Shown: positions 506 to 59,287 of the stretch, piece by piece
Numbering within the stretch: position 1 is the first letter of the stretch
Layout of the letters: each line of letters starts with the position of its first letter
Assembly (NCBI GenBank): GCA_902529885.1
Contig: CABZYC010000001.1
Location: 89,719 to 153,718 of the forward strand
Reading direction: 5' to 3'
DNA length: 64,000 nucleotides
From: an uncultured Candidatus Woesearchaeota archaeon
GTDB taxonomy: Archaea > Nanobdellota > Nanobdellia > Woesearchaeales > GW2011-AR9
Position numbers and translations under genes: made by a program
Notes under the pieces: generated by a model
What the model saw: only the letters and a program-made list of their open reading frames with translations
What the model was told of the DNA's origin: nothing
Databases searched by the model: none

Positions 506-1175
506 TTAAATAAGCCTCCACCTTCTCTGTTAAGCCGCTCTGGTGAGCATGTTCATTAACAATTTTAATCGCGTTCTCTGCACGATACTCGTTTTCGGGA
601 GTATCTGCACGAATCCACACTAAGCCATTCTGGCCAACAGTAATATCTGCATTAGTTTGCTTTTTAATTAAGCCAATCATGCTACCCATTTTACCAATAA
701 CCCGTGGCACTTTATTACAATTAATTTTAATCACTCGCCCACCTTCTAAACGATGAAGTTCGGGGTCACGCATCCCAACGTCAACCATGTTTTGAGAACT
801 AACTTTGGTTATCTTAACAACACAAAAATCGCCTATATCAAGCAGGTTACGTAAATTTTCTGATTTTACAAATTTGTTACTTGCATCACGCACAGGTAAC
901 ATTGCAGGATAAACAGAGCCAGTATTAATACGCCACCCACTCATTAAAATATCGTACACTTTCCCAATTATTTTATCGCCAACCCTCGGGAAATAAGGGC
1001 CGTTCAAAGGAGTTACTTTAATAACGCGGCCATCAGTGCCGACTGTCCCTAATCGTTTTGCAACAATTTCTTCCTCACGACGAAAGGTGTTATCACCAGG
1101 TAGGTGGTCCATCCCCGTCGCTAATATTTGACCTGGCACAACTACTTGCCGTGCCTCAACGTGTATATTACTCAT
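492..1175 (-). CDS. rrp4: Exosome complex RNA-binding protein Rrp4 (S1 + KH domains)
   Basis: A 227-aa protein with an N-terminal domain, a central S1-like segment (GDxVIGKV) and a C-terminal KH-like segment (VIGKMGSMIGLIKKQT). It is positioned between the SBDS and Rrp41 genes as in the archaeal exosome superoperon. Confidence 0.9.
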   Translation of the reverse strand: MSNIHVEARQVVVPGQILATGMDHLPGDNTFRREEEIVAKRLGTVGTDGRVIKVTPLNGPYFPRVGDKIIGKVYDILMSGWRINTGSVYPAMLPVRDASNKFVKSENLRNLLDIGDFCVVKITKVSSQNMVDVGMRDPELHRLEGGRVIKINCNKVPRVIGKMGSMIGLIKKQTNADITVGQNGLVWIRADTPENEYRAENAIKIVNEHAHQSGLTEKVEAYLNGVQ

Positions 1176-2857: not shown

Positions 2858-5800
2858 TTAAAACTTGCCACCTTCAAGCTCTTCACGAAGGTCCACAATC
2901 TTTTGGTACACTTTACTTTGTAGTACAGGACTTAAACTTCCATACATCTTGTACACCTTCATGTAATATTTGCGTTTTTCTGTAGACTTATCAGACTTTT
3001 TAGCTAAATCAATCAAATTTTCAATACGTTTCTCAGCAAGTAATTGTCCTTCTATCTGTGAACGTAAACTCATTACGCGGCCATAATAATCTTGCTTTTT
3101 ACTTTCACTCAGTTTCATATACAATTCGTAAGCTGACCCATAATGACTTTTCAAGGTGTCTACACTTGACACATCAACACTACCTTCAATCTTGCGTAAA
3201 CGTCTTCGTAATCGGCGGTGTGGGGCTATTAAATCGTACCCAATGAATAAGCCGCCAAGGAACGTAAAACCACCTATTCCTGAAGCTAATAGTAACGTCA
3301 TGTTAACGGGCCCTTCCTCTTGCTGCACAATAACTTGTGGAGGAGTAACCACTATCTGTTCAGGGACAGTTTTGGCATCACTAAAGTCGCCCGGGCACCA
3401 TTGTTCTTCTGTAGGTTTTTCTTTACGTAGAAAGTTCCCTAACCCGTACTCTTCAAAACAGCTGTTTGCATCAGTACAATCTCGAACTTGAAAGTTATCA
3501 TCACAAACAGACCAGTCGCCACATTCCCATTCCTGCGTACAATCATCAGAAGTCAAGGTGTAACTTGAACCACCACCAGATGAACTGCTACTAGATGAAC
3601 TTCCGCCACCGCCACCGCCACCGCCAGATGAACCGCCACTTGATGAACCACTATCATCATCAGAACTACTGTCATCAGAACTATCATCGTCATTTGTTAA
3701 AGCTGCTAACCTTGAAGTGAGGCTACTTGTATAATTACCTAACAAAGGCAGATAATCCCCACCAACACTTATGTTGCCGGACGCATTGTACGGAACAGGC
3801 CTATCTGCAATACCATCACTTGAAATGTTTGGGATCCCAGAATAAGTACCGTTCCCATCATCTTTCCCATCATCTTGGTAATCACTGTACCAGTTACCAC
3901 CAGTACAGTTGTTGCCCAGAATGTTTGTTTTGGAACAATCATACGATGAATTAAAGATAGTATCATTATGACTAATTATTGAAACGTTACTTGTGTTAAA
4001 TATATTATCATAGACCCTTATGCTAGCATTCGTAATGTCTACACCAATTGGACAATTAAACTCGTTACCTGCAACCTGTATAAAATTTGCAACAGATATG
4101 TTTCTAATTTTAACACATGTATCATTCGCACCAACGTACGTGCCACGGATATAACCTTCGTTATTATCCCTACGAGATATTCCTGTCACAACATCATAAA
4201 TCGTGGAATTAAGAATGTATGCATCACCTAACTGTGATACACCCAACACCGAACCTTTGATTACAGAACGGTTAATAGTACCATGATCCACCATTGTTGC
4301 CCCAATACTAAAATTAGAAACAATACAGTTTTTGAACGTATTCTGAGCACTCATGTTCACAGCCATGCCTGTCCCATTACCAATAAGACTATGGCCTGAA
4401 CAGTCAAAAGTTATGGCAGGAGTTTGCAGGTTAAAACAAGTTTCACCATCAGTTAAGTTTATTGTAATATCTTGGTTCAAGGTTACATTCATTGTAACAT
4501 TCTGTTCAGTACCACCACAACTTATTTCCCCTACCTCTGTCAAGGGCAGCATGTCACCAAACGCCCCTGTATCAGAACCGTTGAATGGAAGCAAAGTTTC
4601 ACCTACACCGTCCAAATCTACGTCCCAGCCATCGTAGCTACCCCAGTAATTACCACCAGTACAATTACCACCAAGAATGTTAATGCTTGAACAGTTCAAA
4701 GTAGTATTCCAAGAAATATCTGAATGTACATCATGGTATGCAGGATAGGTTGTGTTAAACAAATTATTGTACAATGTTACATTAGTCGTGTTTTGGAAGT
4801 AAACACTATAATTCTTCAAATTATATGCTTTATTATTAGCCATCACAGTCGAGTTTACTGTATCAAAAGTGACAGTTGTAGTACTATGATTGAAAGTATT
4901 ATTCAATAAATTACTTCCACTAACCTTGTACATCATTAAAGGTACGCCATCAGAACCATTAAACAAGAGCTTGAACACAGTCAATGAAGCAGTATTCCTT
5001 ACTGTAACCCCATTTGTAGAATTATAAATTGAAACATTTGTAATGTTAACACCATCAATTAGATTGAGGTACATAGCTTCAGTTACAAAATTGTACAATA
5101 CGTTATTTTCCAATGTAAGATTATCTGAAGCAAGAACACGTACACCAACAGTACCATTCACAAACGTGTTATCAAATATTTGGTTATGATCAGATTCAAC
5201 CAATTGAACACTTCGATTCAAACGAAGGAACGTGTTAGAAGTAATATAACTATTATTTATTTCACTAAAATTAACACCAATAAAACTGTCAGCGATAGTC
5301 ATCCCACTTATGTTTATGCCCACTGCAGGATCAACATAAACAGCCGTTGTAAAATTGCTTACAGTACCACCAGTCAAAGTCACATTATCATAATCACTAA
5401 TGTTCACGCCAATACCGCTACCGTTACCAATAAGTTCATTACCGTTAAGGTCAATCACAATGTTGTCTGCTTTCACAATGAAGGCTGACTGGTTACATGA
5501 AACATCTTCAGTTAAAGTAATATCATGGTAAATGTGTGCGCCGCACATCATATTAAAATCAACGTATGCAACACCACTCCTGTTAACAACAGGCGCAGTA
5601 TTGAAATTTACCAAATAGTGTGAACTGTTCGCAGACGCGTTCATTGCACCACCCATAGATTTTATCCGTCTATCACAACTGTCTGGTTCTAACCCAGTAG
5701 CGTTCCAATCAATGCAAACCCCACCATTCAAACGTTGTTGATGCTGTAACATAACAGTTGCATAATCAACCTCGCTACGTTCAGCAGTGTTACCAAGGTC

Positions 5801-8800
5801 AGTAATGCCACTAAAATTAAAATAAGTGTTTGTACCATTACTTGATAACACAAAAGTGCTGGCGTTAAAGTCAGTCTCATTAAACAAGGACCTAAACCGC
5901 CAAATAGGGTAAGAACTACTGTACGTAATATACTGCCAAACGTTAGGTACAATCTCGCCATCTTCAAGCGTGCCCGTATAAGAAGCTGTAGCTGTCAAAC
6001 TTGCAGTTGCACTATCAGACGGTGCATAGTATACACGGCTCACATACAACATTAAAGGTAACTCATCATGCGTGTCAGAATCAATATTGTACCGAGTAGG
6101 CTGATCACTAATACCGTCACCTTCTACACCACCATTATACCCGTTGTCAAGCCCGTAAAAGTCATTGTAAAAGTTTCCGCCCTTACATGGTCCGCCAACA
6201 ATGTTTGGACCATCCGAGCAAGTGTATGAACCGTACCAAGTGTTACTACCGGTATCATCAACATTTTCGGTGTTATCAAAATAATTGTCTTTAATAGTAT
6301 TAGAATCACTTGACGTAATATTTAACCCGTACCCATTATCTTCAATCCAGTTCTCAGCAATAATGTTACCGTCACTATCACCTTGCAATAACATACCGCC
6401 TGCGTTACGTCGTAGAACGTTGTACACTATGTTCATTGAATCAACATCAGTAAAATTGTACGCAGTCTTATTACTATCCTGGATGTCAATGTCCCTAAAA
6501 TGTTCTCCTAAAACACTGTTCAATACAGCAGTTGTGTTCAAGTTAAAAAAGCGGGCGTTCAAATAATCAGTGTTACTAACCACCATGGTGTCTGCTGACG
6601 AATAAGATAATTGAATGTTTGAACTAGTGTCAACCTCAATTGTGTCTTCAAGCGTGTTATTTGTGAAAAGGTTTTCTGCTAAATTTGATTTCACAATATC
6701 AACCATAGTAACATTCACACTTGTTATGTTCATTACAGTCAAATCTGATGCACCGTCAATATCTAAAAACCTTGAATATGTATCACCATAAATGTTTAAC
6801 AAGGCAACGTCTGCAAACCCAACAGAACCATTAGATGTATAGGTATTATTTATAGAATGCACATTTGTGCTTGAACCTACTTGCATCACGCTTAAATCGC
6901 TACTAAAATTGTTATCTGACAAATTTAGATTGTCAATATCACTAAGCATAATGTGTGCAGTACTAGCTTTGGACGCACTCCCATCAAATATGTTACCGCT
7001 CATGTTAACACCACCAATATCACCGTGGAATCGTAATGCATACTGTGAACTTTCACCAAACGTATTATTTTTAATAGTTATACCCGACACATTTTGGTAC
7101 ACACGCAATAAAGTTCGTGCGTCGTTAAACGTATTCTTGTAATACGTGTGAGCTTCACTAAAGGTTGCACTATACGACGCAAAATAATCGTGTCTATCAT
7201 AAGTGTTATACTGTACACTTGCACCGTCAACATTAACAAAGTATGACCCGTGATAATTCCTACTAAAATCGTTGCTGTGCACATAAACATTATCACTGTC
7301 AAACATGAACACACCGTAAAACTTTTTGTTCAAAGCAATAATGTTATCCGTCACATTTACATAAGACCCGTTCACAACATAAATCCCGTTATTATCACGT
7401 TCTAAGGAAGTGTTAGTAATAGTAGTATCATTCACGTCAACCATGTAAATACCATAAAAACTATTGTCAGTGATAACATTCTCTTTATCAATGTTAATCA
7501 CACTACCGCCTTGAATGTTAATACCATAATAAAAGTTCGATATGTTACATTCACGTATTGTAATGTTATTATAACCAATACTCTTAATCCCTGAACCAGA
7601 ACCAGACCCCATGATACTATAACCATTACAATCTAATAGAACGTTATCTGCAGCAATGTAGACTGCTTCATCTTCATCACAAAAAATGTCAGTATTCAAG
7701 GCAGTATCTTCTGTTATACTTATACAATTACTATGGCCTTCACCATCATCATTAGTCAATGGAAAATAGTCTAAATCGTCGTTAATTTGGTATGGAACTT
7801 GAGTGTCACCCACCATGTCACCTTGCACAGAATAGTTACCAAACCCACTCCCACTATCCATCCCAGCATAATTACCGTAATAGTTACCACCAGACATGTT
7901 ACCGCCAAGAATGTTTGTCCCGAGTTGGTACGTAACATTAAAACTGTTCGAACTATTAGAATCCTGGTACACATTATATTCAGTACAGCTAGAACTGCAG
8001 TCAGTTACATTAATGATGTTGTTATACACTAAATTATCAGTACTATTAATGATGTCTAAACCAGTATAAGTTATGCCATATATTGTATTGTTCACAATTA
8101 AACTGTCAGTAGTATCCTCTAAACGAATACCATAATCACTATTATTAATTGTAATATTGTTAACCACGATATTGTTTGATGGATCAATATAAACACCTAT
8201 GTCAAACCCAAAAATGATGCCGTTATTAATACTCACGTTCTCTGCATCTTCGACTTTTATTGCGTACCCTTCACCTTCACCTTGAAACGTAAATCCACCT
8301 AGGTCAAACACTAAGTCGTCGCCAGTGATAAGATAACATGCTTCACCATCACTAAGTGAGTCAACATAAAGGTCAGCAGTCATACTAAAATCGCTTGTAA
8401 CTTCTTGGCAGTCAGGAGTACCTATCAAAGGTAGACTATCATTAATAAAAGTGGTACTATCATTGTAAGGTACTAAAGTGTCACCGATAAAATCACCTGA
8501 CACGTTCGGAACATGTTCATTGCTAGCATTACCGTTATCAACCCCTGTGTACCCACTCCAATAATTACCACCTATGTAAGAGTTACCAACAATATTTGTC
8601 CCGCTTGAAAGTTGGCGATACGATACATTCCAAAAGTGGGTTCCTGAAACTACAACGTTGGGTTTACCTGAATCGTTCCGAAACAAATTGTTGTAGATAG
8701 TACTGTTTATACCTGAGATGTTTAACGAAAGGTTTTTAGAATTAATGAATTTATTTGCTGTAATATTAGTAGAATTTGCAAACTCAACAACTAAACCAAA

Positions 8801-11800
8801 ACTATTATCTTCAAAAATATTACCTGAAATTGTCTTATTAGTACCATTGTAGTAATATAAACCGTACACATTATTTTCAAACGTACTATCCTCAATTGTA
8901 GCGTTACCGTAAACATGCAGAATACTATTATTATAATATTCGATTGAAGATAAAGTGGAAGTTCCGTTAATTGTCACCTCAGTAACATTTGTTAACACAA
9001 CATTGTCGAAGGTAACATTCTCTAGGTTTAAAGTATAATCACTTATGAATGTCACATTACTATCTTCTATTGTAGCAGTATGATTAGCTAAAATCAAGTT
9101 CGAGAAATGTTCAACGTTACAATCTACAACCGTTATAGAGTCATACCCAGTCGCATTAATAAAGGAACCAGTACCGTTACCAGTTACATTATAACCATCA
9201 CAATCCAAGGTGATATCGTCTGCTGCAAAATAGAAGCATGAGCCATTGCTTGAAAGATCACTCATCAATGTAATCGACTCACTATACGTCCCACCACATT
9301 GTGGTTCCCCTGGTGTTGTCAAAGGATAATAGTCACCTGGACTAAAATTACCTTCTTGAGTATAAGGGTAACTTAAGATAGATGTCCCATTCCCATAGAT
9401 ATCAGCAATACCATCACCAGTAATATCTGTTACATTAAGCTCAGCATAAAAGTTTCCTCCAAAATATACGTTACCATTTGCAGTGTCAGACACATTATAG
9501 TAAATATTATTGTCTCTCCCAGAAATAATTTGGGGGGTTATATTAAAATGGTTATATCCAGAGGTATCATTTATATTTATTGTATTCCCACTGAAATAAT
9601 TGTTAAAAATAGATACATTATTATTTATTGAACCAGATGAAGGAAATTGAATCCCTTGCTGGTTGTTAATAAAAAAAAAGTCAGTTATATTGATTGGATG
9701 TTTGGTGCCATTCAAAGCACGCATATAAAGGCCAATAGTATTATTCGTTATATTGACTATGCCCGAACCATAAACTGGATCAGATTCATAACGAGGAGGA
9801 ATGATACCAGCACAGTTACTATATATCCCTATTGAATTATTAGTTAAAATTATTGATTCCGCACGAGATAGATCAAAATAAGATTGTTCATCTAAACAAC
9901 TATTCGACGTGACCGCCCATAATCCCTCTGTGTTATTTTCTATTAACACGTTACCTATAATCTCAATCATCCCATAATGGTTTGGATTTATACGAAGACC
10001 ACTATCACCTCCACTAATGTTAACTTGATCTATGAAAGCTTCACCATCTTCAATTAATACGCCCCAACCCATAGAGGATGAAGTGTTAAAAACACCAGAA
10101 ATTGTTGGTTTTTGACCACCAAGGTTATCAACTAATATACCAAACCTCCAATAATCTAAGAATGTATTTAACTCAGTGGTTGATAGCGTCATTGAACTAT
10201 TTTCTAAATGGATTCCAGTATACCCCCCTTGTATCAAATTTCCTTCAATTATTAATTCATCATCACTAACATCTTCTAATTTTATTGCAGTCCCAACGGC
10301 CGCAGGCGCAGTTATATTTACAAATGAGTTATGGCTTATATTATTCTTCAATGAACCTGCCAATAACTCAATATGGATGAGATCCCAACCACCATAGAAA
10401 GGTCCAAACGTGTTATCATACACTTTATTCCCACCCATTGCAGTTGCAGTCGAAGTAATTATTGGCCCACCATTAAATACAATACCTCGTGTAGAATTAG
10501 TAAAGTTTGTCCAACTCGCATTTTCAGCCAGTGTTTCGCTTGAATTCCAATCAATAAACGTGTTACTATGTATCAAACTGTCGTGGACCCGGTCTTTCAA
10601 AAAGACATTCTCAATATTATTGTGGATACTATTATTATACAACGTTAGATCATTCGTGTCTTCTAAATATACACCGTACGTAAAATTAATGAATTCGCAG
10701 CCTTGAATTGTAACATTGTCATACCCAATAACTTCTATAGCACGCATGTGTGTTTCATTAGCATTTGAACCTTGCCCAATAAACCTTGTACCGTCACATG
10801 TCAAAATTGTATCATCACAAGTAATAGCTAAACCTTCTCCACCCTCGTCTGCATAAATGTCCATGTCCGGACATGTAACTTCACCACATATAGACCCAGG
10901 TATACTACACACATTCTCAATAAGGGGGTAACGGTCACCTTGGTCAAGAATCGGTTCAATCGATTCATTAGTACGGTGAGGCGTGTCAGTGTTACCTAAA
11001 CCGTCACCATCTGTATCATAACCGTGGTATGATCCCCAAAAGTTACCTCCAAGAAAGTGGCCGCCAACAATATTAGATTGGACTGGATCTAGGTCGTACA
11101 AAGGAGACTTTGCAACGTTCCAATACACATAACTGTTACTGTCTGTTTGTGCATTATCTTGACCATCCAAAAACTTGTTATCATAAATGACAGAAGCATT
11201 ATAATCAGTTAACTGTGTACGATCTGATCCATTCACTAAAGTCTCATTAAGATCATCACCAGAATCGTCACCAGTAAACAAAGCGGTGTTATTTACGTTT
11301 TGAATTAATAATGTCCCATTACTGAACGTGTTTAATGAAATTAAATGACCATACGTCCCATCAATGAACAAAGACTGGGTGTTGTTATCCATTAAGTTAG
11401 AAAGGATTGTGTTTTCTAAACCACCTGTGTCCATTCGAACACCATGGTCAAAACCATAGATCCTACAATTTTTAATGGTAACATTATCTCGCCCAGAAAG
11501 TTTGAACCCACTAAAATTATGGGTTGCGTTAGCTTGACAATCCATACAAGTTATACTGTGATTCCGACAATTAATCTCAACATTATCACGTTTTAAAACA
11601 AAACCATCCTCCTCATAACACTCAAAATCGTGTGCAATGTTATCTATACTTTCATACACTGCAATATCGCAGGAAGATATTGTTTCAACACCAATAATTG
11701 CACCCAATAAATTTCCATCTGAAGCGAAATATATGCCGCCAATAGCAACAGCTACTAACATGATTGCAGCTAACGCTAATGAGCCTCGGGTATTACGTTC

Positions 11801-11803
11801 CAT
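2858..11803 (-). CDS. Giant (2,981 aa) membrane-anchored surface protein made of multiple NosD/pectin-lyase-like right-handed beta-helix repeat domains
   Basis: A single uninterrupted reverse-strand ORF with ATG at 11801-11803. The TTG one codon upstream was used by the ORF track. The N-terminus carries a signal-anchor helix (LALAAIMLVAVAIGGIYF). At least six motifs of the form GGN[YF][WY].SY.G.D.DGDG(I/V)(G/A)D recur (LGGNFWGSYHGYDTDGDGLGNTDTP, IGGNYWSGYTGVDNG, GGNYYGNYAGMDSGSG, GGNFYNDFYGLDNGYNGGVEGDGISD, LGGNCTGGNYWGSYDGWDVDLDGVGE, LGNNCTGGNWYSDYQDDGKDDGNG), as in NosD/PbH1 beta-helix proteins. N-x-S/T sequons are very frequent. The C-terminal part has a D/S/G-rich low-complexity linker (…GGGGGGGGSSSSSSSSGGG…), a Cys-rich module, a TM helix (LLLASGIGGFTFLGGLFIGYDLI) and a ~170-aa basic coiled-coil cytoplasmic tail. 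Confidence 0.85.
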   Translation of the reverse strand: MERNTRGSLALAAIMLVAVAIGGIYFASDGNLLGAIIGVETISSCDIAVYESIDNIAHDFECYEEDGFVLKRDNVEINCRNHSITCMDCQANATHNFSGFKLSGRDNVTIKNCRIYGFDHGVRMDTGGLENTILSNLMDNNTQSLFIDGTYGHLISLNTFSNGTLLIQNVNNTALFTGDDSGDDLNETLVNGSDRTQLTDYNASVIYDNKFLDGQDNAQTDSNSYVYWNVAKSPLYDLDPVQSNIVGGHFLGGNFWGSYHGYDTDGDGLGNTDTPHRTNESIEPILDQGDRYPLIENVCSIPGSICGEVTCPDMDIYADEGGEGLAITCDDTILTCDGTRFIGQGSNANETHMRAIEVIGYDNVTIQGCEFINFTYGVYLEDTNDLTLYNNSIHNNIENVFLKDRVHDSLIHSNTFIDWNSSETLAENASWTNFTNSTRGIVFNGGPIITSTATAMGGNKVYDNTFGPFYGGWDLIHIELLAGSLKNNISHNSFVNITAPAAVGTAIKLEDVSDDELIIEGNLIQGGYTGIHLENSSMTLSTTELNTFLDYWRFGILVDNLGGQKPTISGVFNTSSSMGWGVLIEDGEAFIDQVNISGGDSGLRINPNHYGMIEIIGNVLIENNTEGLWAVTSNSCLDEQSYFDLSRAESIILTNNSIGIYSNCAGIIPPRYESDPVYGSGIVNITNNTIGLYMRALNGTKHPINITDFFFINNQQGIQFPSSGSINNNVSIFNNYFSGNTININDTSGYNHFNITPQIISGRDNNIYYNVSDTANGNVYFGGNFYAELNVTDITGDGIADIYGNGTSILSYPYTQEGNFSPGDYYPLTTPGEPQCGGTYSESITLMSDLSSNGSCFYFAADDITLDCDGYNVTGNGTGSFINATGYDSITVVDCNVEHFSNLILANHTATIEDSNVTFISDYTLNLENVTFDNVVLTNVTEVTINGTSTLSSIEYYNNSILHVYGNATIEDSTFENNVYGLYYYNGTNKTISGNIFEDNSFGLVVEFANSTNITANKFINSKNLSLNISGINSTIYNNLFRNDSGKPNVVVSGTHFWNVSYRQLSSGTNIVGNSYIGGNYWSGYTGVDNGNASNEHVPNVSGDFIGDTLVPYNDSTTFINDSLPLIGTPDCQEVTSDFSMTADLYVDSLSDGEACYLITGDDLVFDLGGFTFQGEGEGYAIKVEDAENVSINNGIIFGFDIGVYIDPSNNIVVNNITINNSDYGIRLEDTTDSLIVNNTIYGITYTGLDIINSTDNLVYNNIINVTDCSSSCTEYNVYQDSNSSNSFNVTYQLGTNILGGNMSGGNYYGNYAGMDSGSGFGNYSVQGDMVGDTQVPYQINDDLDYFPLTNDDGEGHSNCISITEDTALNTDIFCDEDEAVYIAADNVLLDCNGYSIMGSGSGSGIKSIGYNNITIRECNISNFYYGINIQGGSVINIDKENVITDNSFYGIYMVDVNDTTITNTSLERDNNGIYVVNGSYVNVTDNIIALNKKFYGVFMFDSDNVYVHSNDFSRNYHGSYFVNVDGASVQYNTYDRHDYFASYSATFSEAHTYYKNTFNDARTLLRVYQNVSGITIKNNTFGESSQYALRFHGDIGGVNMSGNIFDGSASKASTAHIMLSDIDNLNLSDNNFSSDLSVMQVGSSTNVHSINNTYTSNGSVGFADVALLNIYGDTYSRFLDIDGASDLTVMNITSVNVTMVDIVKSNLAENLFTNNTLEDTIEVDTSSNIQLSYSSADTMVVSNTDYLNARFFNLNTTAVLNSVLGEHFRDIDIQDSNKTAYNFTDVDSMNIVYNVLRRNAGGMLLQGDSDGNIIAENWIEDNGYGLNITSSDSNTIKDNYFDNTENVDDTGSNTWYGSYTCSDGPNIVGGPCKGGNFYNDFYGLDNGYNGGVEGDGISDQPTRYNIDSDTHDELPLMLYVSRVYYAPSDSATASLTATASYTGTLEDGEIVPNVWQYITYSSSYPIWRFRSLFNETDFNASTFVLSSNGTNTYFNFSGITDLGNTAERSEVDYATVMLQHQQRLNGGVCIDWNATGLEPDSCDRRIKSMGGAMNASANSSHYLVNFNTAPVVNRSGVAYVDFNMMCGAHIYHDITLTEDVSCNQSAFIVKADNIVIDLNGNELIGNGSGIGVNISDYDNVTLTGGTVSNFTTAVYVDPAVGINISGMTIADSFIGVNFSEINNSYITSNTFLRLNRSVQLVESDHNQIFDNTFVNGTVGVRVLASDNLTLENNVLYNFVTEAMYLNLIDGVNITNVSIYNSTNGVTVRNTASLTVFKLLFNGSDGVPLMMYKVSGSNLLNNTFNHSTTTVTFDTVNSTVMANNKAYNLKNYSVYFQNTTNVTLYNNLFNTTYPAYHDVHSDISWNTTLNCSSINILGGNCTGGNYWGSYDGWDVDLDGVGETLLPFNGSDTGAFGDMLPLTEVGEISCGGTEQNVTMNVTLNQDITINLTDGETCFNLQTPAITFDCSGHSLIGNGTGMAVNMSAQNTFKNCIVSNFSIGATMVDHGTINRSVIKGSVLGVSQLGDAYILNSTIYDVVTGISRRDNNEGYIRGTYVGANDTCVKIRNISVANFIQVAGNEFNCPIGVDITNASIRVYDNIFNTSNVSIISHNDTIFNSSYDCSKTNILGNNCTGGNWYSDYQDDGKDDGNGTYSGIPNISSDGIADRPVPYNASGNISVGGDYLPLLGNYTSSLTSRLAALTNDDDSSDDSSSDDDSGSSSGGSSGGGGGGGGSSSSSSSSGGGSSYTLTSDDCTQEWECGDWSVCDDNFQVRDCTDANSCFEEYGLGNFLRKEKPTEEQWCPGDFSDAKTVPEQIVVTPPQVIVQQEEGPVNMTLLLASGIGGFTFLGGLFIGYDLIAPHRRLRRRLRKIEGSVDVSSVDTLKSHYGSAYELYMKLSESKKQDYYGRVMSLRSQIEGQLLAEKRIENLIDLAKKSDKSTEKRKYYMKVYKMYGSLSPVLQSKVYQKIVDLREELEGGKF

Positions 11804-11919
11804 CAAATCGCCTCAGACCTATCCTTGATTGAGTATAAGCAATGAAAATAATACAATTTGTACGTATATAAATATTTGGATTAAGATACGTTTATATATT
11901 CTTTAAACCTTATTAATTT
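11804..11919. promoter_or_regulatory. AT-rich divergent promoter region between the giant surface-protein gene and the small Cys-rich protein genes
   Basis: A 116-nt intergenic spacer with TATA-like boxes (tttatata ~25 nt upstream of the ATG at 11920, and a cttatact-like element on the opposite strand). No coding potential. Confidence 0.35.
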
Positions 11920-24855: not shown

Positions 24856-25116
24856 ATGGAACGAGTATACACTATCCCCCTACGAAGAGAGTACAGGAAA
24901 GCTGCAATATGGCGTCGTACTAAACGTGCAATGAACGAAGTTAGAACTTTTTTATCAAAGCACATGAAAAGTGATGATGTCCGTATTGGAACTGACGTGA
25001 ACGAGTTTCTATGGAAGCACGGTGGAAAAAACCCGCCACACAAAGTTAAAGTAACTGTTACAAAAGATGAAAACAATGTTGTAAAAGCATCATTGTTTAC
25101 ACAATCAAATGGTTAA
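24856..25116 (+). CDS. rpl31e: Ribosomal protein L31e
   Basis: Carries the L31e signature YTIPLRREYRKAAIWRRTKRAMNEVRTFLSKHMK…VRIGTDVNEFLWKHG. It starts 1 nt after the L39e stop. Confidence 0.9.
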   Translation: MERVYTIPLRREYRKAAIWRRTKRAMNEVRTFLSKHMKSDDVRIGTDVNEFLWKHGGKNPPHKVKVTVTKDENNVVKASLFTQSNG

Positions 25117-27992: not shown

Positions 27993-28048
27993 TTGTATTC
28001 TCACTCAGTAGCGAACTATTTAAAAAGCTTACGACTCAACTGTATATA
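27993..28048. promoter_or_regulatory. Divergent promoter spacer (S3Ae / dppA-like)
   Basis: The spacer contains tgtatataat immediately upstream of the ATG at 28049 and is AT-rich. Confidence 0.3.
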
Positions 28049-28864
28049 ATGAACGTTTTAATCAGTAGCGATGTGGAAGGTGTGTGCGGAGTAGATGATT
28101 ACGAGTATATAAACGGCCTTGACAAAAACAAGCTTGAACAAGGCAAAAAATGGGTTACAGAAGAACTTAATGTACTTATTGACGTCTGCTTTGAAAAAGG
28201 TGCGAAAAAAGTTATGGTTGTTGATGGGCATGGGAAAGGTGACAACATTATCATGAATCTTCTTGACGACCGCGCGATGATACTTCGTAAGCATGAATAC
28301 AGAATGATCGAAGGTATCACAGACAATGTTAACTATTTAATTCTGCAGGGGTACCACGGGAAAGCCAACGTCGCAAACTCTTTTACGGCACACAGCTATT
28401 CAAGCTTCTTTTTTTCAGAAGTGCGTGTTAACGGCCGTAGTATTGGAGAATCTGAACTTAATGCTATGGTAGCTAAACAACTAGGTATCAAAACAATCTT
28501 ACTAACAGGAACAAAAGAAGCTATTAACGAATGTCAGATTAAAGGGTTACAAACAGTTGAAACTAAAGAAAGCCTATCATGGTCAACAGCACAGTCTTAT
28601 GACCAAAAAGTAGTTTTGAAAAAAATGAAAGAGAAGTGTGAACACGCATTTGACACAAAGGATTCTATTGATTACATTGACGACGAAATTTATAATGTGG
28701 AGATTGAAGTTGAATTGAACCATTTAGCAATAGCAGAATTGTTAGCATACCCACGAATTAATCCTAAAACGATTTCTTTTGATGCACCGAGTATTGAAGA
28801 TGCGTACCTAGAACTAATGCGTATTGGACAAGCATGTAAAAAGTTGTATTCAACAATTTATTGA
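28049..28864 (+). CDS. dppA: D-aminopeptidase DppA family (peptidase M55)
   Basis: The N-terminus MNVLISSDVEGVCGVDDYEY matches M55 'MKxxISADxEGxxGV'. The downstream VVDGHG and HGKANV regions are conserved. The protein is 271 aa. Confidence 0.8.
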   Translation: MNVLISSDVEGVCGVDDYEYINGLDKNKLEQGKKWVTEELNVLIDVCFEKGAKKVMVVDGHGKGDNIIMNLLDDRAMILRKHEYRMIEGITDNVNYLILQGYHGKANVANSFTAHSYSSFFFSEVRVNGRSIGESELNAMVAKQLGIKTILLTGTKEAINECQIKGLQTVETKESLSWSTAQSYDQKVVLKKMKEKCEHAFDTKDSIDYIDDEIYNVEIEVELNHLAIAELLAYPRINPKTISFDAPSIEDAYLELMRIGQACKKLYSTIY

Positions 28865-29845
28865 ATTATACAATTTACTCATAAACTGGTCCACCAAATC
28901 ACGGCGACCAGCATAAATGAAGTCTTCGGTAGCAGGAGACGGATTCAATATTTCAAGTTCGCTCACATAAGGGTTAAGGTTCTCATCCGTAACAATATCA
29001 ACACGATAAAATGTAGGGTTATAACCATTATCACTGAGCCAACCACCAATATCACGAGTTAGCTCTACTTCTTTTTTGTTTGGTTCATAAGGATTAACAT
29101 CAACATGTGTTTGAGCTCTACCCCAAGCCATGATCGGCTTACCATTACCCTCATACCCGCTAAGCGTATGAATACGAGGCAAAACAATATCTTCACCTAC
29201 CACCATTAATTTACGTTCACCTCGTTCAGTGAAACCAGTCATATAAGGCTGATGAATTAGTCCCTGAGTAGTACCATAAAAGTCACCTCGCCCAAACTTG
29301 GTATACAAACCTTCTTTTTGCTCACCAGTTAACTGAGATGTTACTTCTGTTCCAATACCGCGCTCGCTAACAAGAGGTTTTACGATCCCAGTAGTTAAAC
29401 TCAATAGATGGTCTAACGATTTAACAGCAGTGGTCGGTACAACAGGTATCCCTGCTTGTTGTAACCGTAACAAATACTGTTTACTAATGAAATCTTGTAC
29501 AACGTTGTAAGGGTTATGTGTCGGAATCCCGCACTTCTGCGCACGTCGGTATAAAGCTAAAAATTCAGGCATATCATTTGTTAACGCAGTCACTCTATAC
29601 GGACTAGATTGTCCTACTGCCCCCATAAATAACACGTCCAACTCTTCAAACTTAATTTCTGATTCTCGGTAACGCCCACTATATTTTCGGCGAAGGTCAA
29701 TCATGTCACCAGTATAAATGTCTAAGCCTACAACTGGCCCTTGTTGCCTGAACGCTTTAATAAACTCACATGTTTTATCAGATATATCGTCGTACTGGTC
29801 ATTTTGTACACGGTTCAATAAGATACCCATTAATTTTTTATCCAT
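28850..29845 (-). CDS. ATP-grasp family ligase (substrate unknown)
   Basis: A 331-aa protein with ATP-grasp motifs GIVKPLVSERGIGTEV (the Lys/Gly loop), a central QPYM segment and a C-terminal RVDIVTDENLNPYVSELEILNPSP (E…N..P Mg/ATP motif). Its start overlaps the upstream racemase stop by 8 nt. Confidence 0.75.
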   Translation of the reverse strand: MDKKLMGILLNRVQNDQYDDISDKTCEFIKAFRQQGPVVGLDIYTGDMIDLRRKYSGRYRESEIKFEELDVLFMGAVGQSSPYRVTALTNDMPEFLALYRRAQKCGIPTHNPYNVVQDFISKQYLLRLQQAGIPVVPTTAVKSLDHLLSLTTGIVKPLVSERGIGTEVTSQLTGEQKEGLYTKFGRGDFYGTTQGLIHQPYMTGFTERGERKLMVVGEDIVLPRIHTLSGYEGNGKPIMAWGRAQTHVDVNPYEPNKKEVELTRDIGGWLSDNGYNPTFYRVDIVTDENLNPYVSELEILNPSPATEDFIYAGRRDLVDQFMSKLYNSINC

Positions 29846-30575
29846 TTAATTCTCCTACCGCTACCACTTCTGAACTTACAACCTCACCAACCTCTTCTTT
29901 AACAAGACGTAACGTTTCAAGAGCAACACAGTATGATGGATCTACTAAAGGAACACTGTGTTCTTCATTCTTCATTACCAAAGGAATTTCTGTACAGCCC
30001 ATAACAACACACTCTGCCCCTTTCATTATCAAAGAGTCAGCAACACGGTCCATTATAGCTTTCCCAGCTAAATGTTGACCCGCCTTAACCAAATAGATTG
30101 CATCAGTCATTGCTTGTTGATCTTCTTCACAAGGGTCCACTACTTCAAACCCATATTTCTCCAACGCGGCACGATACAATCCAAACTTAGTAGTCACATT
30201 TGTACCTAATACACCCACTTTTTTAAAAGAATAATGTTGTTTAATATGCACCGATGTCACATCCATAAAATTGAGTATTGGAATAGTTATATTTGGTTGA
30301 ATCTCAGATATAAAATAATGTGCAGTGTTACAAGGCATAATAATATGGCTTACCCCACACATTTCCAATTGCTGTGCCATCTTGATCATTTCGGGAACAG
30401 GACTTTCACCGTCACCCCATATTGCATCTAGCCGGTGAGGTAACAAAGAATTATTCCATACAAGAATAGGTATATGGTCCTGGTCACACCCCGCAGGAGT
30501 CACTGAAAATAATAGTTGTGCCATTTGATTTGTAGCTTCAGGACCCATCCCACCAAGTATGCCTATTGGTTTCAT
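29838..30575 (-). CDS. Aspartate racemase (Asp/Glu racemase superfamily)
   Basis: Start at internal ATG MKPIGILGGMGPEATNQ, the canonical aspartate racemase N-terminus. The conserved Cys regions (MPCNTAHYF, GCTEIPL) are present. The ORF track's GTG adds 6 aa. Confidence 0.9.
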   Translation of the reverse strand: MKPIGILGGMGPEATNQMAQLLFSVTPAGCDQDHIPILVWNNSLLPHRLDAIWGDGESPVPEMIKMAQQLEMCGVSHIIMPCNTAHYFISEIQPNITIPILNFMDVTSVHIKQHYSFKKVGVLGTNVTTKFGLYRAALEKYGFEVVDPCEEDQQAMTDAIYLVKAGQHLAGKAIMDRVADSLIMKGAECVVMGCTEIPLVMKNEEHSVPLVDPSYCVALETLRLVKEEVGEVVSSEVVAVGELNG

Positions 30576-30593: not shown

Positions 30594-30819
30594 ACACCTA
30601 TTTAAACATAATGGATATCAACTCAATCTCGATTTAAAGAGAATTACTGGCCTTTTAGTTGGCCGAAAAGACAGAAACACATATCTTTTAACTGTTTAAA
30701 CCTCATTTTGTCCTTTAAACTAAGCAAGGCGTTAATCAAAATCAAGCAATACCTAATTGTAACCACTACCAAGATGTAATGGAAGATAGATTTAAGTAAT
30801 AAAAGAAAATCAACTATAG
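30594..30819. promoter_or_regulatory. Largest intergenic region (226 nt); divergent promoters for the racemase/ATP-grasp operon and the 30820 gene
   Basis: An AT-rich spacer with no convincing ORF; the 61-aa reverse ORF at 30644-30829 has no support. It contains a short GGCC-TTTTAGTT-GGCC hairpin-like element. No tRNA-like structure was seen on either strand. Confidence 0.3.
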
Positions 30820-31404
30820 GTGGGACCATATCTACAGAGTACAGAATATACTACTGCTGCAGCAAGTTTAGTATACATATTACATGAACTAACCGGCCAA
30901 ATTCAAAATACGTGGATTGAACTTGACATTTGGAGAAGTTCAGCATTATTACCAACACGAGCATCATCAATATATGGACTTGCAAATTATTGTGCCAAGC
31001 AAGGACTTAAAGCAACGATCATTATTCAAAAAAAACAGTACAGTTTCCCAGACTACCGTTTTTTTAGATACAAAAAAACAGACATAGATATTGCAAAGGA
31101 CATGCAAGATTATTATCAAAGGCAGGCAGTCATTTTAAACATACCAATCATTAAGCAAAAAATAGATGTTGAAACCATCAAATCTTATAACAAACAAATA
31201 ATGTTGGTTAGATTAAACCCAAGGGTATGGAGAGGAACAACAACAAGCAATTTTGTTGTAGTTAAACCAATAAATGAACACTTTATCATAATGGATCCAG
31301 CAATAGGTCAATTTTGTATCACAGCAGAAACGTTACAACAAGCATTAAATGACCTACAAGATAAAAAAAAAAGAGAACCACAGTTACTTGTCTTGCAAAG
31401 CTAA
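30820..31404 (+). CDS. Hypothetical protein, possibly papain/C39-like peptidase fold (uncertain); GTG start
   Basis: A 194-aa ORF that begins at GTG immediately after an in-frame stop; there is no in-frame ATG until residue 105. The N-terminus QSTEYTTAAASLVYILHELTG resembles the C39-type 'Q…CG.A.L…' helix but lacks the Cys; a Cys occurs later (ANYCAKQG). Confidence 0.35.
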   Translation: MGPYLQSTEYTTAAASLVYILHELTGQIQNTWIELDIWRSSALLPTRASSIYGLANYCAKQGLKATIIIQKKQYSFPDYRFFRYKKTDIDIAKDMQDYYQRQAVILNIPIIKQKIDVETIKSYNKQIMLVRLNPRVWRGTTTSNFVVVKPINEHFIIMDPAIGQFCITAETLQQALNDLQDKKKREPQLLVLQS

Positions 31405-32370
31405 TACCTTCCGATAACTTTCATCAATCTGTGATTCAGGAATTAAACCTGAACGAACAGCGCTAGCCACCGTTTTTATAAAAAAATCTAAATCTGCTGG
31501 ATCTTCCGAAAAATAAGGGACCATGTCAACACCAGCAATCATGACAGACAAATAAGCTTCTTCAACTGAATCGTACCGATCCATTAAACCAAGCATGCTA
31601 ATCTCGTCACTCACAACAATGCCAGAGTAAGAATTTTTTAAGTTAGTGATTATAATAGGGCTTGCACTATTAGGTAAACCCATACTGTCAACTTGACCAG
31701 TAGAAACAAGATGGTTCACCATTACCATTGAAGGCGATGATGCACCTATTACTTCATTAAACACAAACAGATCATCTTCATGAACAATAGACGAAGCAAT
31801 TTCTAAGTGTGTATCATCAAAAAGAGTTGCACCAGGATAATGTTTAACGGCAACAAATATGCCACCGTTTTGGAAAAAGTCTACATATTGAGTACCAAAC
31901 CGAACAACTTCATCTTTTTCAAACCCCAAACTCCTACAACCCCATACACTATCACCTAAATCTAATACGGGAGCAAAATTTATCGTTGCACCAACTTGGT
32001 TCATTGCAGCCAAGTCCGATTCCATCTTTGGTAACCACTGGGATTCGTCCAAAGTATGAAGGTCAAGAGAATCATGCCAAGGAAAAGGATTACGACACCC
32101 TTCGAGATCAACACTTACTTGCACTGAAGGATCAATGGACCTGTACGAATCTATTAAGTCATGATAAGAATCAACTGAATCACGGTTAAATACATGCACT
32201 GTTTTAACCCCCATTGAAACATGTTTAACAGCATTATCAGGGTTGGCAGCAGCAATTAATAAAGCTCCAACCTTTTTTTCAAGTACATCGTATTCCGTTG
32301 TCGTCCCAACTGCAAAACTTGCTAAAATCAAGTTTAAAAAAATAAGGATTATAAGCACAAAATACTTCAT
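31384..32370 (-). CDS. Secreted glycoside hydrolase family 3 N-terminal domain protein (NagZ-like beta-N-acetylhexosaminidase)
   Basis: A signal peptide (MKYFVLIILIFLNLILASFAVG) is followed by GH3 motifs INFAPVLDLGD…R, GIFVAVKHYPG (the KHFPG motif) and DDTHLE. The protein is 328 aa and single-domain. Confidence 0.8.
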   Translation of the reverse strand: MKYFVLIILIFLNLILASFAVGTTTEYDVLEKKVGALLIAAANPDNAVKHVSMGVKTVHVFNRDSVDSYHDLIDSYRSIDPSVQVSVDLEGCRNPFPWHDSLDLHTLDESQWLPKMESDLAAMNQVGATINFAPVLDLGDSVWGCRSLGFEKDEVVRFGTQYVDFFQNGGIFVAVKHYPGATLFDDTHLEIASSIVHEDDLFVFNEVIGASSPSMVMVNHLVSTGQVDSMGLPNSASPIIITNLKNSYSGIVVSDEISMLGLMDRYDSVEEAYLSVMIAGVDMVPYFSEDPADLDFFIKTVASAVRSGLIPESQIDESYRKVLALQDK

Positions 32371-59213: not shown

Positions 59214-59287
59214 AGTAGTCACCTATGCTTATCTTCAAAGTGAACGTACTTTATAAACATTCATATCGTAAAACTACTATCCAGTGA

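What the first reader, a model, noticed from the sequence alone, without database searches (positions are those of the whole stretch)
28850..30575. Translationally coupled aspartate racemase → ATP-grasp ligase operon (8-nt overlap)
The racemase stop codon lies inside the first codons of the ATP-grasp ORF on the same strand, implying co-expression and a shared pathway. The two genes overlap by 8 nt. The ATP-grasp has only ~330 aa with a non-standard N-terminal half, so its acceptor substrate cannot be read from the sequence.
Basis: seen in the sequence. Interest (0 to 1): 0.6.

Follow-up and report, generated by a model that had tools for sequence, protein, structure and literature searches.

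The report
Archaeal racemase plus novel ATP-grasp ligase operon
A DPANN archaeon carries a tightly coupled gene pair, an aspartate-type amino-acid racemase followed by an ATP-dependent ligase of an undescribed family. The same pairing recurs in distant archaea, including Lokiarchaeum, usually next to peptidases that cut unusual (D- or iso-) peptide bonds, which points to an unrecognised pathway for making a D-amino-acid peptide in archaea.

Summary
On the minus strand, a 245-aa racemase (29838-30575) ends 8 nt inside a 331-aa ORF (28850-29845). The overlap depends on choosing Met1 rather than Met6 as the start, and Met1 is better supported. Overlaps are routine in this genome, so the overlap itself proves little.

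The real signal is conservation. In all 10 informative relatives of the 331-aa protein (24-76% identity), a racemase gene is directly adjacent: 7 Asp-type and 3 MurI glutamate-type. The hosts include DPANN archaea and Ca. Lokiarchaeum ossiferum. A peptidase for unusual peptide bonds usually sits beside the pair: an M55 D-aminopeptidase (here, convergent), Asparaginase_2 or S66.

The 331-aa protein matches no Pfam model, but it is a genuine ATP-grasp enzyme. An AlphaFold model built with an alignment has pLDDT 92.7. Its best fold and profile match is the D-cycloserine synthetase DcsG, followed by GshB, LysX/ArgX and RimK. All ATP, Mg and catalytic residues are present.

Best reading: a leaderless operon that makes D-Asp (possibly D-Glu) and ligates it to an unknown amine, with the M55 peptidase turning the product over. 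This is functionally analogous to bacterial racD-aslA; orthology with AslA was not tested. The family is rare and unannotated, so I class it as a new variant of a known kind. Substrates are inferred, not shown.

The parts
29838..30575 (-). PLP-independent two-cysteine racemase, aspartate-racemase type (245 aa), first gene of the operon
   Evidence: Pfam Asp_Glu_race 8e-41. TIGR00035 195 bits against a cutoff of 93. PDB 1jfl P. horikoshii AspR at 4.7e-54 and 42% identity, with MPCNTAH and GCTE Cys motifs plus Arg48 and Lys164 equivalents conserved.
28850..29845 (-). ATP-grasp carboxylate-amine ligase of an undescribed family (331 aa), second gene
   Evidence: No Pfam hit. 91 distant relatives among 1.84 billion cluster representatives. 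The family profile hits DcsG at 1.1e-15 and GshB at 3e-5. AF2 with an MSA gives pLDDT 92.7. Foldseek best match is DcsG 6jil, E 3.7e-15. Invariant residues: K122, K156, E210, R281, D283, E296, E298 and R224.
29838..29845 (-). 8-nt overlap ATGGATAA (ligase ATG 29845-29843; racemase TAA 29840-29838)
   Evidence: Identical in L002. The junction is a 16-nt overlap in L001, 1-4 nt overlaps in L004, L005 and L012, and 1-10 nt gaps in L003, L006, L009 and L013.
29852..29856 (-). Shine-Dalgarno-like AGGAG, 6 nt upstream of the ligase ATG, inside the racemase 3' end
   Evidence: Read from the sequence. Function is inferred.
29828..29830 (-). Alternative in-frame ATG (Met6), which would remove the overlap
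   Evidence: 326-aa gene calls exist in public data. Codon 6 is ATA in the 76% homologue.
30599..30606 (-). TATA-like box TTTAAATA centred about 27 nt upstream of the racemase ATG, implying a leaderless transcript
   Evidence: The same spacing (box starts 27-31 nt upstream of the start codon) is seen at about 10 other first genes in the window. No such box precedes the ligase gene. Inferred.
28049..28864 (+). Peptidase M55 (DppA-type D-aminopeptidase), convergent, with its 3' end overlapping the ligase 3' end by 15 nt
   Evidence: Pfam PF04951 7.3e-53. PDB 1hi9 DppA at 1.1e-19, with the SxDxEG, DxHxK, GYH and GE motifs aligned. Adjacent and convergent to the ligase in L001, L002, L006-8, L009 and L013-15.
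30820..31404 (+). DUF3335 / C39-like papain-fold protein, divergent from the racemase; likely catalytically inactive in this lineage
   Evidence: Pfam PF11814 5.2e-10. Found in the same cluster in L002, L006-8, L009-11 and L013, and within 4 kb in L019. Cys->Thr and His->Asn at the C39 catalytic positions.

Best explanation
This is a two-gene operon on the minus strand of a DPANN (Woesearchaeota/Nanoarchaeota-like) archaeon.

Shown:
- Gene 1 is an Asp-type, PLP-independent, two-cysteine racemase.
- Gene 2 is an ATP-grasp enzyme of a rare, unannotated family in the GshB/RimK/DcsG clade, with a complete ATP/Mg/catalytic residue set.
- The two gene families are adjacent in every informative relative, including Ca. 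Lokiarchaeum ossiferum.
- The pair is usually flanked by a peptidase for non-standard peptide bonds.

Inferred:
- Transcription starts leaderless from a TATA box about 27 nt upstream of the racemase ATG. The ligase is translated by coupling or re-initiation at an AGGAG-ATG that overlaps the racemase stop.
- The racemase converts L-Asp (possibly L-Glu) to the D-form.
- The ligase phosphorylates a carboxylate with ATP to form an acyl-phosphate and couples it to an amine, producing a small D-aminoacyl amide or peptide. Most likely the D-residue is the carboxyl donor, so the product keeps a free N-terminal D-residue.
- The convergent M55 D-aminopeptidase (isoaspartyl peptidase in Lokiarchaeum, LD-carboxypeptidase in another lineage) hydrolyses or turns over that product.

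The acceptor amine and the physiological role are unknown.
For: Operon anatomy:
- 8-nt overlap, AGGAG 6 nt upstream of the ligase ATG, TATA-like box only in front of the racemase.

Racemase identity:
-.

ATP-grasp identity:
- Family profile against PDB: DcsG 1.1e-15, GshB 3e-5, RimK about 0.01.
- AF2 pLDDT 92.7.
- Foldseek: DcsG, then ArgX/LysX, PsnB, RimK, Ddl, all at probability 1.00.
- Residues aligning with the GshB NEK and LKP lysines, the R210/R225 positions and the D/E/N Mg triad are invariant. The third triad position is Glu, as in DcsG.

Functional linkage:
- A racemase is directly adjacent in 10 of 10 informative family members at 24-76% identity: window/L002, L001, L003 (Lokiarchaeum), L004, L005, L006-8, L009, L012, L013-15 and L017.
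- The partner is Asp-type in 7 and MurI-type in 3 (TIGR00067 at 210-247 bits). The constant feature is therefore an acidic-amino-acid racemase, not one particular gene lineage.
- Ligase and racemase pairwise identities correlate weakly (Spearman 0.46-0.53).

Hydrolase partners:
- M55 in four independent ligase lineages (window/L001/L002, L006-8, L009, L013-15), Asparaginase_2 in Lokiarchaeum (4.6e-77) and Peptidase_S66 in L017.

Precedents:
- DcsG acts on a D-amino-acid substrate directly after a racemisation step (PMC9298251).
- racD and the ATP-grasp D-Asp ligase aslA share an operon in L. lactis (PMC4155827).
Against: - There is no biochemical or expression data.
- The closest characterised relative, DcsG, is an intramolecular cyclase, not an intermolecular ligase.
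- No ligase positions segregate convincingly with Asp-type versus Glu-type partners. The ligase may therefore use the same D-amino acid everywhere, be promiscuous, or not use the racemase product at all.
- The hydrolase partners disagree on where the D-residue sits: M55 implies N-terminal, S66 implies C-terminal.
- M55 plus racemase could instead be a catabolic pair for scavenged D-peptides.
- The DUF3335 partner lacks its catalytic Cys/His here.
- If Met6 is the true start, there is no overlap.
Confidence: 0.55

Rival explanations
1. DcsG-like cyclase. The ATP-grasp activates a carboxylate of the D-amino acid, or of a derivative, and an internal nucleophile attacks it. The product is a cyclic molecule (for example 5-oxo-D-proline from D-Glu, or a heterocycle) rather than a peptide.
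For: DcsG is the best match by both profile and fold. The Mg-triad variant D/E/E is shared with DcsG. DcsG also follows a racemase step.
Against: The NCBIfam DcsG equivalog scores 36.5 bits against a cutoff of 360. No other dcs-type genes are nearby. The recurrent peptidase neighbours M55, S66 and Asparaginase_2 make sense for a peptide product, not a cyclised monomer. Some loci carry two or three ATP-grasp ligases (L009, L017, L019), which suggests stepwise peptide assembly.
Confidence: 0.12
2. RimK/LysX-like protein modification. The ligase adds D-Asp or D-Glu to a carboxylate of a protein or carrier protein, such as a C-terminal tail, and the peptidases trim it.
For: ArgX/LysX and RimK are among the best fold matches. 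A RimK-like paralogue accompanies the family in L017. A papain-fold DUF3335 protein co-occurs.
Against: No LysW-like or other small conserved carrier gene is present in the module. M55 enzymes act on free N-terminal D-residues of short peptides, not protein C-termini (family knowledge; DppA 1hi9). RimK profile similarity is marginal (E about 0.01).
Confidence: 0.1
3. Aslfm/AslA-type cell-wall ligase. D-Asp is attached through its beta-carboxyl to a lysine of a murein-like or pseudomurein-like precursor.
For: The operon logic matches racD-aslA (PMC13631041). A secreted GH3 NagZ-like gene lies nearby. Isoaspartyl peptidase in Lokiarchaeum fits a beta-aspartyl linkage.
Against: No Mur ligase, MraY or other wall-precursor genes are present in 64 kb. 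The host is a DPANN archaeon. GH3 is syntenic only in close relatives. The ligase groups with DcsG/GshB rather than any annotated D-Asp ligase model.
Confidence: 0.06
4. D-amino-acid salvage. M55 releases D-Asp or D-Glu from scavenged bacterial peptides, the racemase converts it to the L-form, and the ATP-grasp has an unrelated role.
For: DPANN archaea are scavengers. M55 and the racemase could act catabolically. M55 has its own TATA box and the opposite orientation.
Against: The invariant partner of the racemase is the ATP-grasp, not M55. L004, L005, L012 and L017 lack M55 but keep the pair with 1-4 nt overlaps or a 1-nt gap. An ATP-consuming ligase has no place in a purely catabolic route.
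Confidence: 0.1
5. Chance adjacency in a compact genome, with no functional link.
For: Overlapping neighbours are the norm in this window.
Against: Adjacency is conserved in 10 of 10 informative relatives down to 24% identity. It holds across DPANN and Asgard archaea, with two different racemase lineages and in different surrounding contexts.
Confidence: 0.02

Closest known systems
racD-aslA (Lactococcus lactis) / Racfm-Aslfm (Enterococcus faecium): aspartate racemase plus ATP-grasp D-aspartate ligase operon
   Same: A PLP-independent Asp racemase is co-operonic with an ATP-grasp enzyme. In the bacterial system that enzyme activates D-Asp as beta-aspartyl phosphate and forms an amide (PMC4155827; PMC13631041).
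   Different: The host is a DPANN archaeon with no murein genes in view. The ligase is closest to DcsG/GshB and matched no NCBIfam or Pfam family above its cutoff. The acceptor is unknown. The module also carries an M55 D-aminopeptidase and DUF3335. Relatives pair with MurI as well. Direct sequence comparison with Aslfm could not be done.
DcsG, D-cycloserine synthetase (PDB 6jil), acting after the DcsC racemisation step
   Same: Best profile match (1.1e-15) and best fold match (TM 0.66/0.72). It shares the Glu at the third Mg-triad position. It acts on a D-amino-acid carboxylate made by a preceding racemase step.
   Different: Identity is only about 16%. The NCBIfam equivalog scores 36.5 against a cutoff of 360. 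There is no dcs gene cluster. The racemase belongs to a different superfamily (Asp/Glu racemase rather than the DapF-like type, the latter from my own knowledge). The peptidase neighbours point to an intermolecular product.
GshB / RimK / LysX-ArgX clade of ATP-grasp peptide ligases
   Same: Same three-domain fold, similar length and the same catalytic residue constellation. 8 of 35 family members weakly hit Pfam GSH-S_ATP.
   Different: The window protein hits none of these models. It has a family-specific SER motif (E161 invariant, R162 nearly so) in place of the glycine-rich loop, a distinct N-domain sequence, and an obligate racemase partner.
Ddl (D-Ala-D-Ala ligase) with DppA/M55 D-aminopeptidase
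   Same: An ATP-grasp enzyme makes a D-aminoacyl dipeptide, and M55 DppA hydrolyses such dipeptides (DppA activity from my own knowledge; homology).
   Different: The window protein has no Dala_Dala_lig Pfam hit. Ddl ranks below DcsG, LysX and RimK in the fold search. The partner racemase is the Asp/Glu type, not alanine racemase.
Pyrococcus horikoshii aspartate racemase (PDB 1jfl)
   Same: 42% identity over 219 residues, with both catalytic Cys motifs and the Arg48/Lys164 equivalents.
   Different: About 20 extra C-terminal residues, variable among homologues, carry the overlap with the ligase gene. Substrate specificity is untested.

Membership tests
ATP-grasp superfamily (GshB/RimK/DcsG-type carboxylate-amine ligases) | Three-domain ATP-grasp fold | tested here: met
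   AF2 with a 35-sequence MSA gives pLDDT 92.7 and pTM 0.90. Foldseek returns 415 PDB hits at E<=0.001, and the 50 best listed are all ATP-grasp enzymes, led by DcsG at 3.7e-15.
ATP-grasp superfamily (GshB/RimK/DcsG-type carboxylate-amine ligases) | ATP-binding lysines, catalytic Arg/Lys and the acidic Mg2+-binding triad | tested here: met
   K122, K156, K212, R224, D283, E296 and E298 align with the GshB NEK, LKP, DKR, LAR, D and ExN positions. They are invariant in the family alignments. GshB residue numbers are from my own knowledge.
ATP-grasp superfamily (GshB/RimK/DcsG-type carboxylate-amine ligases) | ATP-dependent acyl-phosphate ligase activity | not testable with these tools
   Needs an enzyme assay.
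DcsG (D-cycloserine synthetase) equivalog | Score above the NCBIfam NF058666 cutoff, and dcs cluster context | tested here: not met
   36.5 bits against a cutoff of 360, covering only residues 89-143. No dcs-like neighbours.
Aslfm/AslA D-aspartate ligase | ATP-grasp enzyme co-operonic with an aspartate racemase | tested here: met
   Precedent in PMC4155827.
Aslfm/AslA D-aspartate ligase | Sequence orthology to Aslfm/AslA | not tested
   No Aslfm sequence or structure was reachable with the tools. The only NCBIfam hits were DcsG, a biotin carboxylase model and MptN, all far below cutoff.
Aslfm/AslA D-aspartate ligase | Acceptor is a peptidoglycan precursor (UDP-MurNAc-pentapeptide Lys) | tested here: inconclusive
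   No Mur or MraY genes in the 64-kb window. The host is DPANN-like. The whole genome was not available.
PLP-independent aspartate racemase (TIGR00035 / PF01177) | Family score above cutoff and two catalytic cysteines | tested here: met
   PF01177 140.6 bits against 31; TIGR00035 195.2 against 93.1. The MPCNTAH and GCTE motifs align with Cys82 and Cys194 of 1jfl.
PLP-independent aspartate racemase (TIGR00035 / PF01177) | Specificity for aspartate | not testable with these tools
   Arg48 and Lys164 equivalents are conserved (their role is from my own knowledge). The CuyB 'cysteate racemase' model also passes (234 against 190), but so does the characterised P. horikoshii AspR (249.6), so that hit does not discriminate.
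D-Ala-D-Ala ligase (Ddl) | Match to the Dala_Dala_lig_N/C models | tested here: not met
   The window protein has no Pfam hit. Only 1 of 35 family members hits Dala_Dala_lig_C, at 0.0014.
RimK / GSH-S_ATP Pfam families | Score above the Pfam gathering threshold | tested here: not met
   The window protein hits 0 families at E<=0.01. In the wider family, 8 of 35 hit GSH-S_ATP and 1 of 35 hits RimK.

The most novel reading that the evidence does not exclude
DPANN (Woesearchaeota-like) and Asgard (Lokiarchaeum) archaea have a dedicated, previously undescribed pathway for D-amino-acid peptides. A racemase feeds D-Asp or D-Glu to a new ATP-grasp ligase family. The product is a small D-aminoacyl peptide or oligomer, possibly an envelope component, an osmolyte or an interaction factor. 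Its level is controlled by co-localised D-aminopeptidase, isoaspartyl-peptidase or LD-carboxypeptidase enzymes. To my knowledge this would be the first dedicated D-amino-acid ligation system described in archaea, and it would give a physiological sink for archaeal aspartate racemases.
Probability: 0.45. Interest if true: 0.75.

Novelty: new variant of a known kind. Interest (0 to 1): 0.6.

Why it matters
Why archaea have aspartate racemases and free D-Asp is poorly understood. To my knowledge, no dedicated archaeal enzyme that incorporates a D-amino acid into a peptide has been described, and my literature searches found none.

This locus links an Asp-type racemase to a specific, conserved ligase partner and to a D-aminopeptidase. 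That turns a vague question into a bench-testable one: express two or three small soluble proteins, feed L-Asp or L-Glu plus ATP, and identify the product.

The ligase family has no Pfam model and is annotated 'hypothetical' even in the cultured Lokiarchaeum ossiferum, so defining it would improve annotation of DPANN and Asgard genomes. If the product is an envelope or interaction molecule, it would bear on DPANN-host biology.

If the finding is ordinary, it is still a clean example of operon logic (racemase then ATP-grasp) arising in archaea with a ligase that shows no detectable family-level similarity to the known bacterial one.

Tried and rejected
- **Single-sequence AF2:** useless (pLDDT 33.7). 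It worked only with the alignment of distant relatives.
- **K-mer-indexed protein search:** found only 2 close relatives, and only 4 with the profile. The exhaustive HMMER search was needed.
- **GTDB genome scans:** the window protein found nothing. Alignments A1 and A2 were too divergent to seed a scan. A3 found only Lokiarchaeum.
- **Metagenome scan:** gave only 2 loci.
- **'Cysteate racemase' (CuyB) reading:** rejected, because the biochemically characterised P. horikoshii AspR also passes that model.
- **Ligase residues that segregate with Asp-type versus Glu-type partners:** only three weak N-domain positions from 7 versus 3 sequences, so inconclusive.
- **NJ tree:** the Glu-partnered ligases do not form a clade, but the tree is crude.
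- **Mirror-tree correlation:** weak.
- **Literature:** Iyer et al. 2009, the key ATP-grasp/amidoligase survey, is not held. Searches found no description of this archaeal pair.
- **GH3 as part of the module:** rejected, because it is syntenic only in close relatives.
- **Exact-sequence contig look-up for the window protein:** returned nothing.
- **Docking of D-Asp:** not possible, because model coordinates are not exposed.
Full report
**1. What is in the sequence**

Both ORFs lie on the minus strand. The racemase ORF runs from the ATG at 30575 to the TAA at 29838-29840 (245 aa). The second ORF starts at the ATG at 29845-29843 and ends at 28850 (331 aa). On the coding strand the junction reads GGA GAA TTA AAT GGA TAA, with ATG GAT AAA in the +1 frame, so 8 nt (ATGGATAA, 29838-29845) are shared.

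An AGGAG lies 6 nt upstream of that ATG (29852-29856). A second in-frame ATG at codon 6 (29828-29830) would give a 7-nt gap instead of an overlap, and some public gene calls of near-identical proteins use it (326 aa). The 76%-identical homologue has ATA at codon 6 and keeps the ATG at the Met1 position, so Met1 is the better-supported start.

The same 8-nt junction occurs on an independent metagenomic contig (L002), and the 76% relative has a 16-nt overlap (L001). Assembly artefact or frameshift is therefore excluded.

The overlap is not special in this genome. About half of the same-strand neighbour pairs in the window overlap, and two other pairs overlap by 8 nt.

**2. Expression signals (inferred)**

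A TATA-like TTTAAATA (30599-30606, minus strand) is centred about 27 nt upstream of the racemase ATG. About ten other first-in-unit genes in the window have a TATA-like box starting 27-31 nt upstream of their start codons. This is the signature of leaderless archaeal transcripts. No such box precedes the 331-aa ORF, which has the AGGAG instead. This fits one leaderless transcript with internal re-initiation. The convergent M55 gene has its own box.

**3. The organism**

The window encodes archaeal/eukaryal-type ribosomal proteins (S3Ae, L31e), Cbf5, exosome Rrp4, SBDS, proteasome alpha, tRNA-intron endonuclease and FEN1. G+C is 37%.

All named best hits of its AspRS are Nanoarchaeota, Woesearchaeota or Nanoarchaeia MAGs at 55-65% identity. 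The host is therefore a DPANN archaeon, and related contigs come mostly from marine metagenomes.

**4. The racemase**

- Pfam Asp_Glu_race 8e-41, and TIGR00035 195 bits against a cutoff of 93.
- Best solved relative is P. horikoshii aspartate racemase 1jfl (4.7e-54, 42% identity), with the MPCNTAH and GCTE catalytic-cysteine motifs and the Arg48/Lys164 equivalents conserved.
- It also passes the NCBIfam 'cysteate racemase CuyB' equivalog (234 against 190). However, the biochemically characterised P. horikoshii enzyme passes that model too (249.6), so the hit is uninformative.

The type is secure. The substrate (Asp versus Glu or others) is inferred.

**5. The 331-aa protein**

It has no Pfam hit. 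Its only NCBIfam hits are far below cutoff: DcsG, a biotin carboxylase model and MptN.

An exhaustive HMMER search of 1.84 billion cluster representatives found 91 relatives at E<=1e-3 and 27 at E<=1e-10, so the family is rare. The Lokiarchaeum member is annotated 'hypothetical protein' or 'ATP-grasp domain-containing protein'.

A 35-sequence alignment has these invariant residues: N111, K122, K156, P157, E161, Q199, G209, E210, R281, D283, E296, E298 and P302. The tighter 16-sequence alignment adds K212 and R224.

The family profile hits DcsG (6jil) at 1.1e-15, E. coli GshB at 3e-5 and RimK at about 0.01. In those alignments:

| Family residue | Aligned position |
|---|---|
| K122, K156 | The two ATP-binding lysines of GshB |
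| K212, R224 | The GshB Arg210 and Arg225 positions |
| D283, E296, E298 | The Mg triad; the third position is Glu, as in DcsG |

AlphaFold2 failed on the single sequence (pLDDT 33.7). With the alignment it gave pLDDT 92.7 and pTM 0.90. Foldseek against the PDB ranks DcsG first (E 3.7e-15, TM 0.66/0.72, 346 aligned columns), followed by ArgX/LysX, PsnB, RimK and Ddl.

It is therefore a bona fide ATP-grasp enzyme of ordinary size with a complete catalytic set. Its N-domain is divergent in sequence but aligns structurally with that of DcsG.

**6. Conserved context: the main result**

Gene neighbourhoods were recovered for relatives at 24-76% identity. They were classified with phmmer, Pfam and NCBIfam. 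In all ten informative lineages a racemase gene is directly adjacent to the ligase gene.

| Locus | Racemase type | Junction with ligase | Other module genes |
|---|---|---|---|
| window / L002 | Asp-type | 8-nt overlap | M55, DUF3335 |
| L001 | Asp-type | 16-nt overlap | M55 |
| L006-8 | Asp-type | 2-nt gap | M55, DUF3335 |
| L009 | Asp-type | 1-nt gap | M55, a second paralogous ligase, DUF3335 |
| L003, Ca. Lokiarchaeum ossiferum | Asp-type | 10-nt gap | Convergent Asparaginase_2 (isoaspartyl peptidase family, 4.6e-77) |
| L005 | Asp-type | 4-nt overlap | none seen |
| L012 | Asp-type | 1-nt overlap | none seen |
| L004 | MurI glutamate-type | 1-nt overlap | none seen |
| L013-15 | MurI glutamate-type | 2-nt gap | M55, Amidohydro_2, DUF3335 |
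| L017 | MurI glutamate-type, downstream of the ligase | 1-nt gap | RimK-like ligase, Peptidase_S66 LD-carboxypeptidase |

The MurI calls rest on TIGR00067 scores of 210-247 bits against a cutoff of 147. More distant clade members (L019, L020) lack a racemase. Two short contigs are uninformative.

The constant feature is 'acidic-amino-acid racemase next to this ligase', irrespective of racemase lineage, surrounding genes or phylum. The frequent extra is a peptidase for D-, iso- or L-D peptide bonds.

**7. Mechanistic reading**

Shown: the identities of both enzymes, the intact active sites and the conserved linkage.

Inferred:
- The racemase supplies D-Asp (or D-Glu).
- The ligase forms an acyl-phosphate and couples it to an amine.
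- The product is a small peptide or amide containing the D-residue.
- M55, whose metal-ligand motifs align with B. subtilis DppA 1hi9, hydrolyses it.

Two points suggest the D-residue is the carboxyl donor and stays N-terminal. DcsG activates the carboxylate of a D-amino acid made by a preceding racemisation (PMC9298251), and M55 enzymes need a free N-terminal D-residue. Isoaspartyl peptidase in Lokiarchaeum leaves open a beta-linkage, as in AslA, which uses beta-aspartyl phosphate (PMC4155827). S66 in L017 would instead fit a C-terminal D-residue, so the orientation is unresolved.

The acceptor is unknown. Loci with two or three ligases (L009, L017, L019) suggest longer products in some lineages.

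**8. Weak points**

- No ligase residues track the racemase type.
- The crude tree does not group the Glu-partnered members.
- Co-evolution is only weakly detectable.
- The closest characterised homologue is a cyclase.
- The DUF3335 partner in this lineage has Thr and Asn at the C39 catalytic Cys and His positions, so its role is obscure.
- No wall-precursor genes occur in the 64 kb.

**9. Comparison with known systems**

Functionally, the nearest precedent is the bacterial racD-aslA / Racfm-Aslfm operon. Evolutionarily, the ligase is nearest to DcsG within the GshB/RimK/LysX clade.

It fails the DcsG equivalog test and matches no Ddl, RimK or GSH-S Pfam model. Orthology to Aslfm could not be tested directly.

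I class it as a new variant of a known kind: known chemistry and operon logic, in a new ligase family, with a new module composition, in new hosts (DPANN and Asgard archaea).

**10. Verdict**

The interesting part is not the 8-nt overlap but the conserved racemase / ATP-grasp / D-peptidase module. Interest is 0.6.

Noticed in passing
window 30820-31404 (+); L006 7955-8560; L009 5150-5755; L013 7294-7899; L019 655-1260: The DUF3335/C39-like protein of the module has Thr at the C39 catalytic Cys position and Asn at the catalytic His position in the window, L006 and L009. The L013 and L019 homologues keep Cys and His. It may be a pseudo-peptidase in this sublineage.
   Followed up: partly
L003 5304-5306 (Ca. 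Lokiarchaeum ossiferum CP104013): The racemase next to the Lokiarchaeum ligase homologue has an in-frame TGA at a non-conserved position (KQII*LTPAKKDQDH). This could be a pseudogene, read-through, recoding or a sequencing error.
   Followed up: no
window, e.g. 30599-30606, 28019-28024, and upstream of the genes starting at 32696, 45902, 45982, 46652, 48613, 56882 and 59740: Many first genes have a TATA-like box starting 27-31 nt upstream of the start codon and no Shine-Dalgarno motif. This implies mostly leaderless transcripts. SD-like motifs appear mainly before internal genes.
   Followed up: partly
L009 4052-5086; L017 3229-5139; L019 5998-6165: Some relatives carry extra ligases in the module. 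L009 has a second paralogue of the family between M55 and DUF3335. L017 has a RimK-like ATP-grasp plus an S66 LD-carboxypeptidase. L019 has a tandem ATP-grasp N-terminus. This hints at multi-step peptide assembly.
   Followed up: partly
window 28850-28864; L001 1497-1511; L002 3215-3229; L009 3182-3191; L013 5644-5647: The 3' ends of the ligase gene and the convergent M55 gene overlap: 15 nt in the window, L001 and L002; 10 nt in L009; 4 nt in L013. Their transcripts must overlap antisense at the ends.
   Followed up: no
window 31384-32370 (-): A GH3 (NagZ-like beta-N-acetylhexosaminidase family) protein with a hydrophobic, signal-like N-terminus lies next to the module. It is syntenic in L002 and L009/L010 but not in distant relatives.
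   Followed up: partly
window 2858-11806 (-): A giant 2982-aa ORF with 8 NosD and 5 right-handed beta-helix stretches, probably a surface protein of the DPANN cell. Further Ig-like/He_PIG proteins lie at 56952-59222 and 61378-63942.
   Followed up: no
window 1168-1175 and 25109-25116: Two other same-strand gene pairs overlap by exactly 8 nt (Rrp4-like/SBDS, and L31e with the following ORF). About 15 of ~30 same-strand pairs overlap, mostly by 4 nt.
   Followed up: yes
window 1-64000: No Rfam family reached its gathering score anywhere in the 64 kb, so there are no tRNA, rRNA or known sRNA matches.
   Followed up: no
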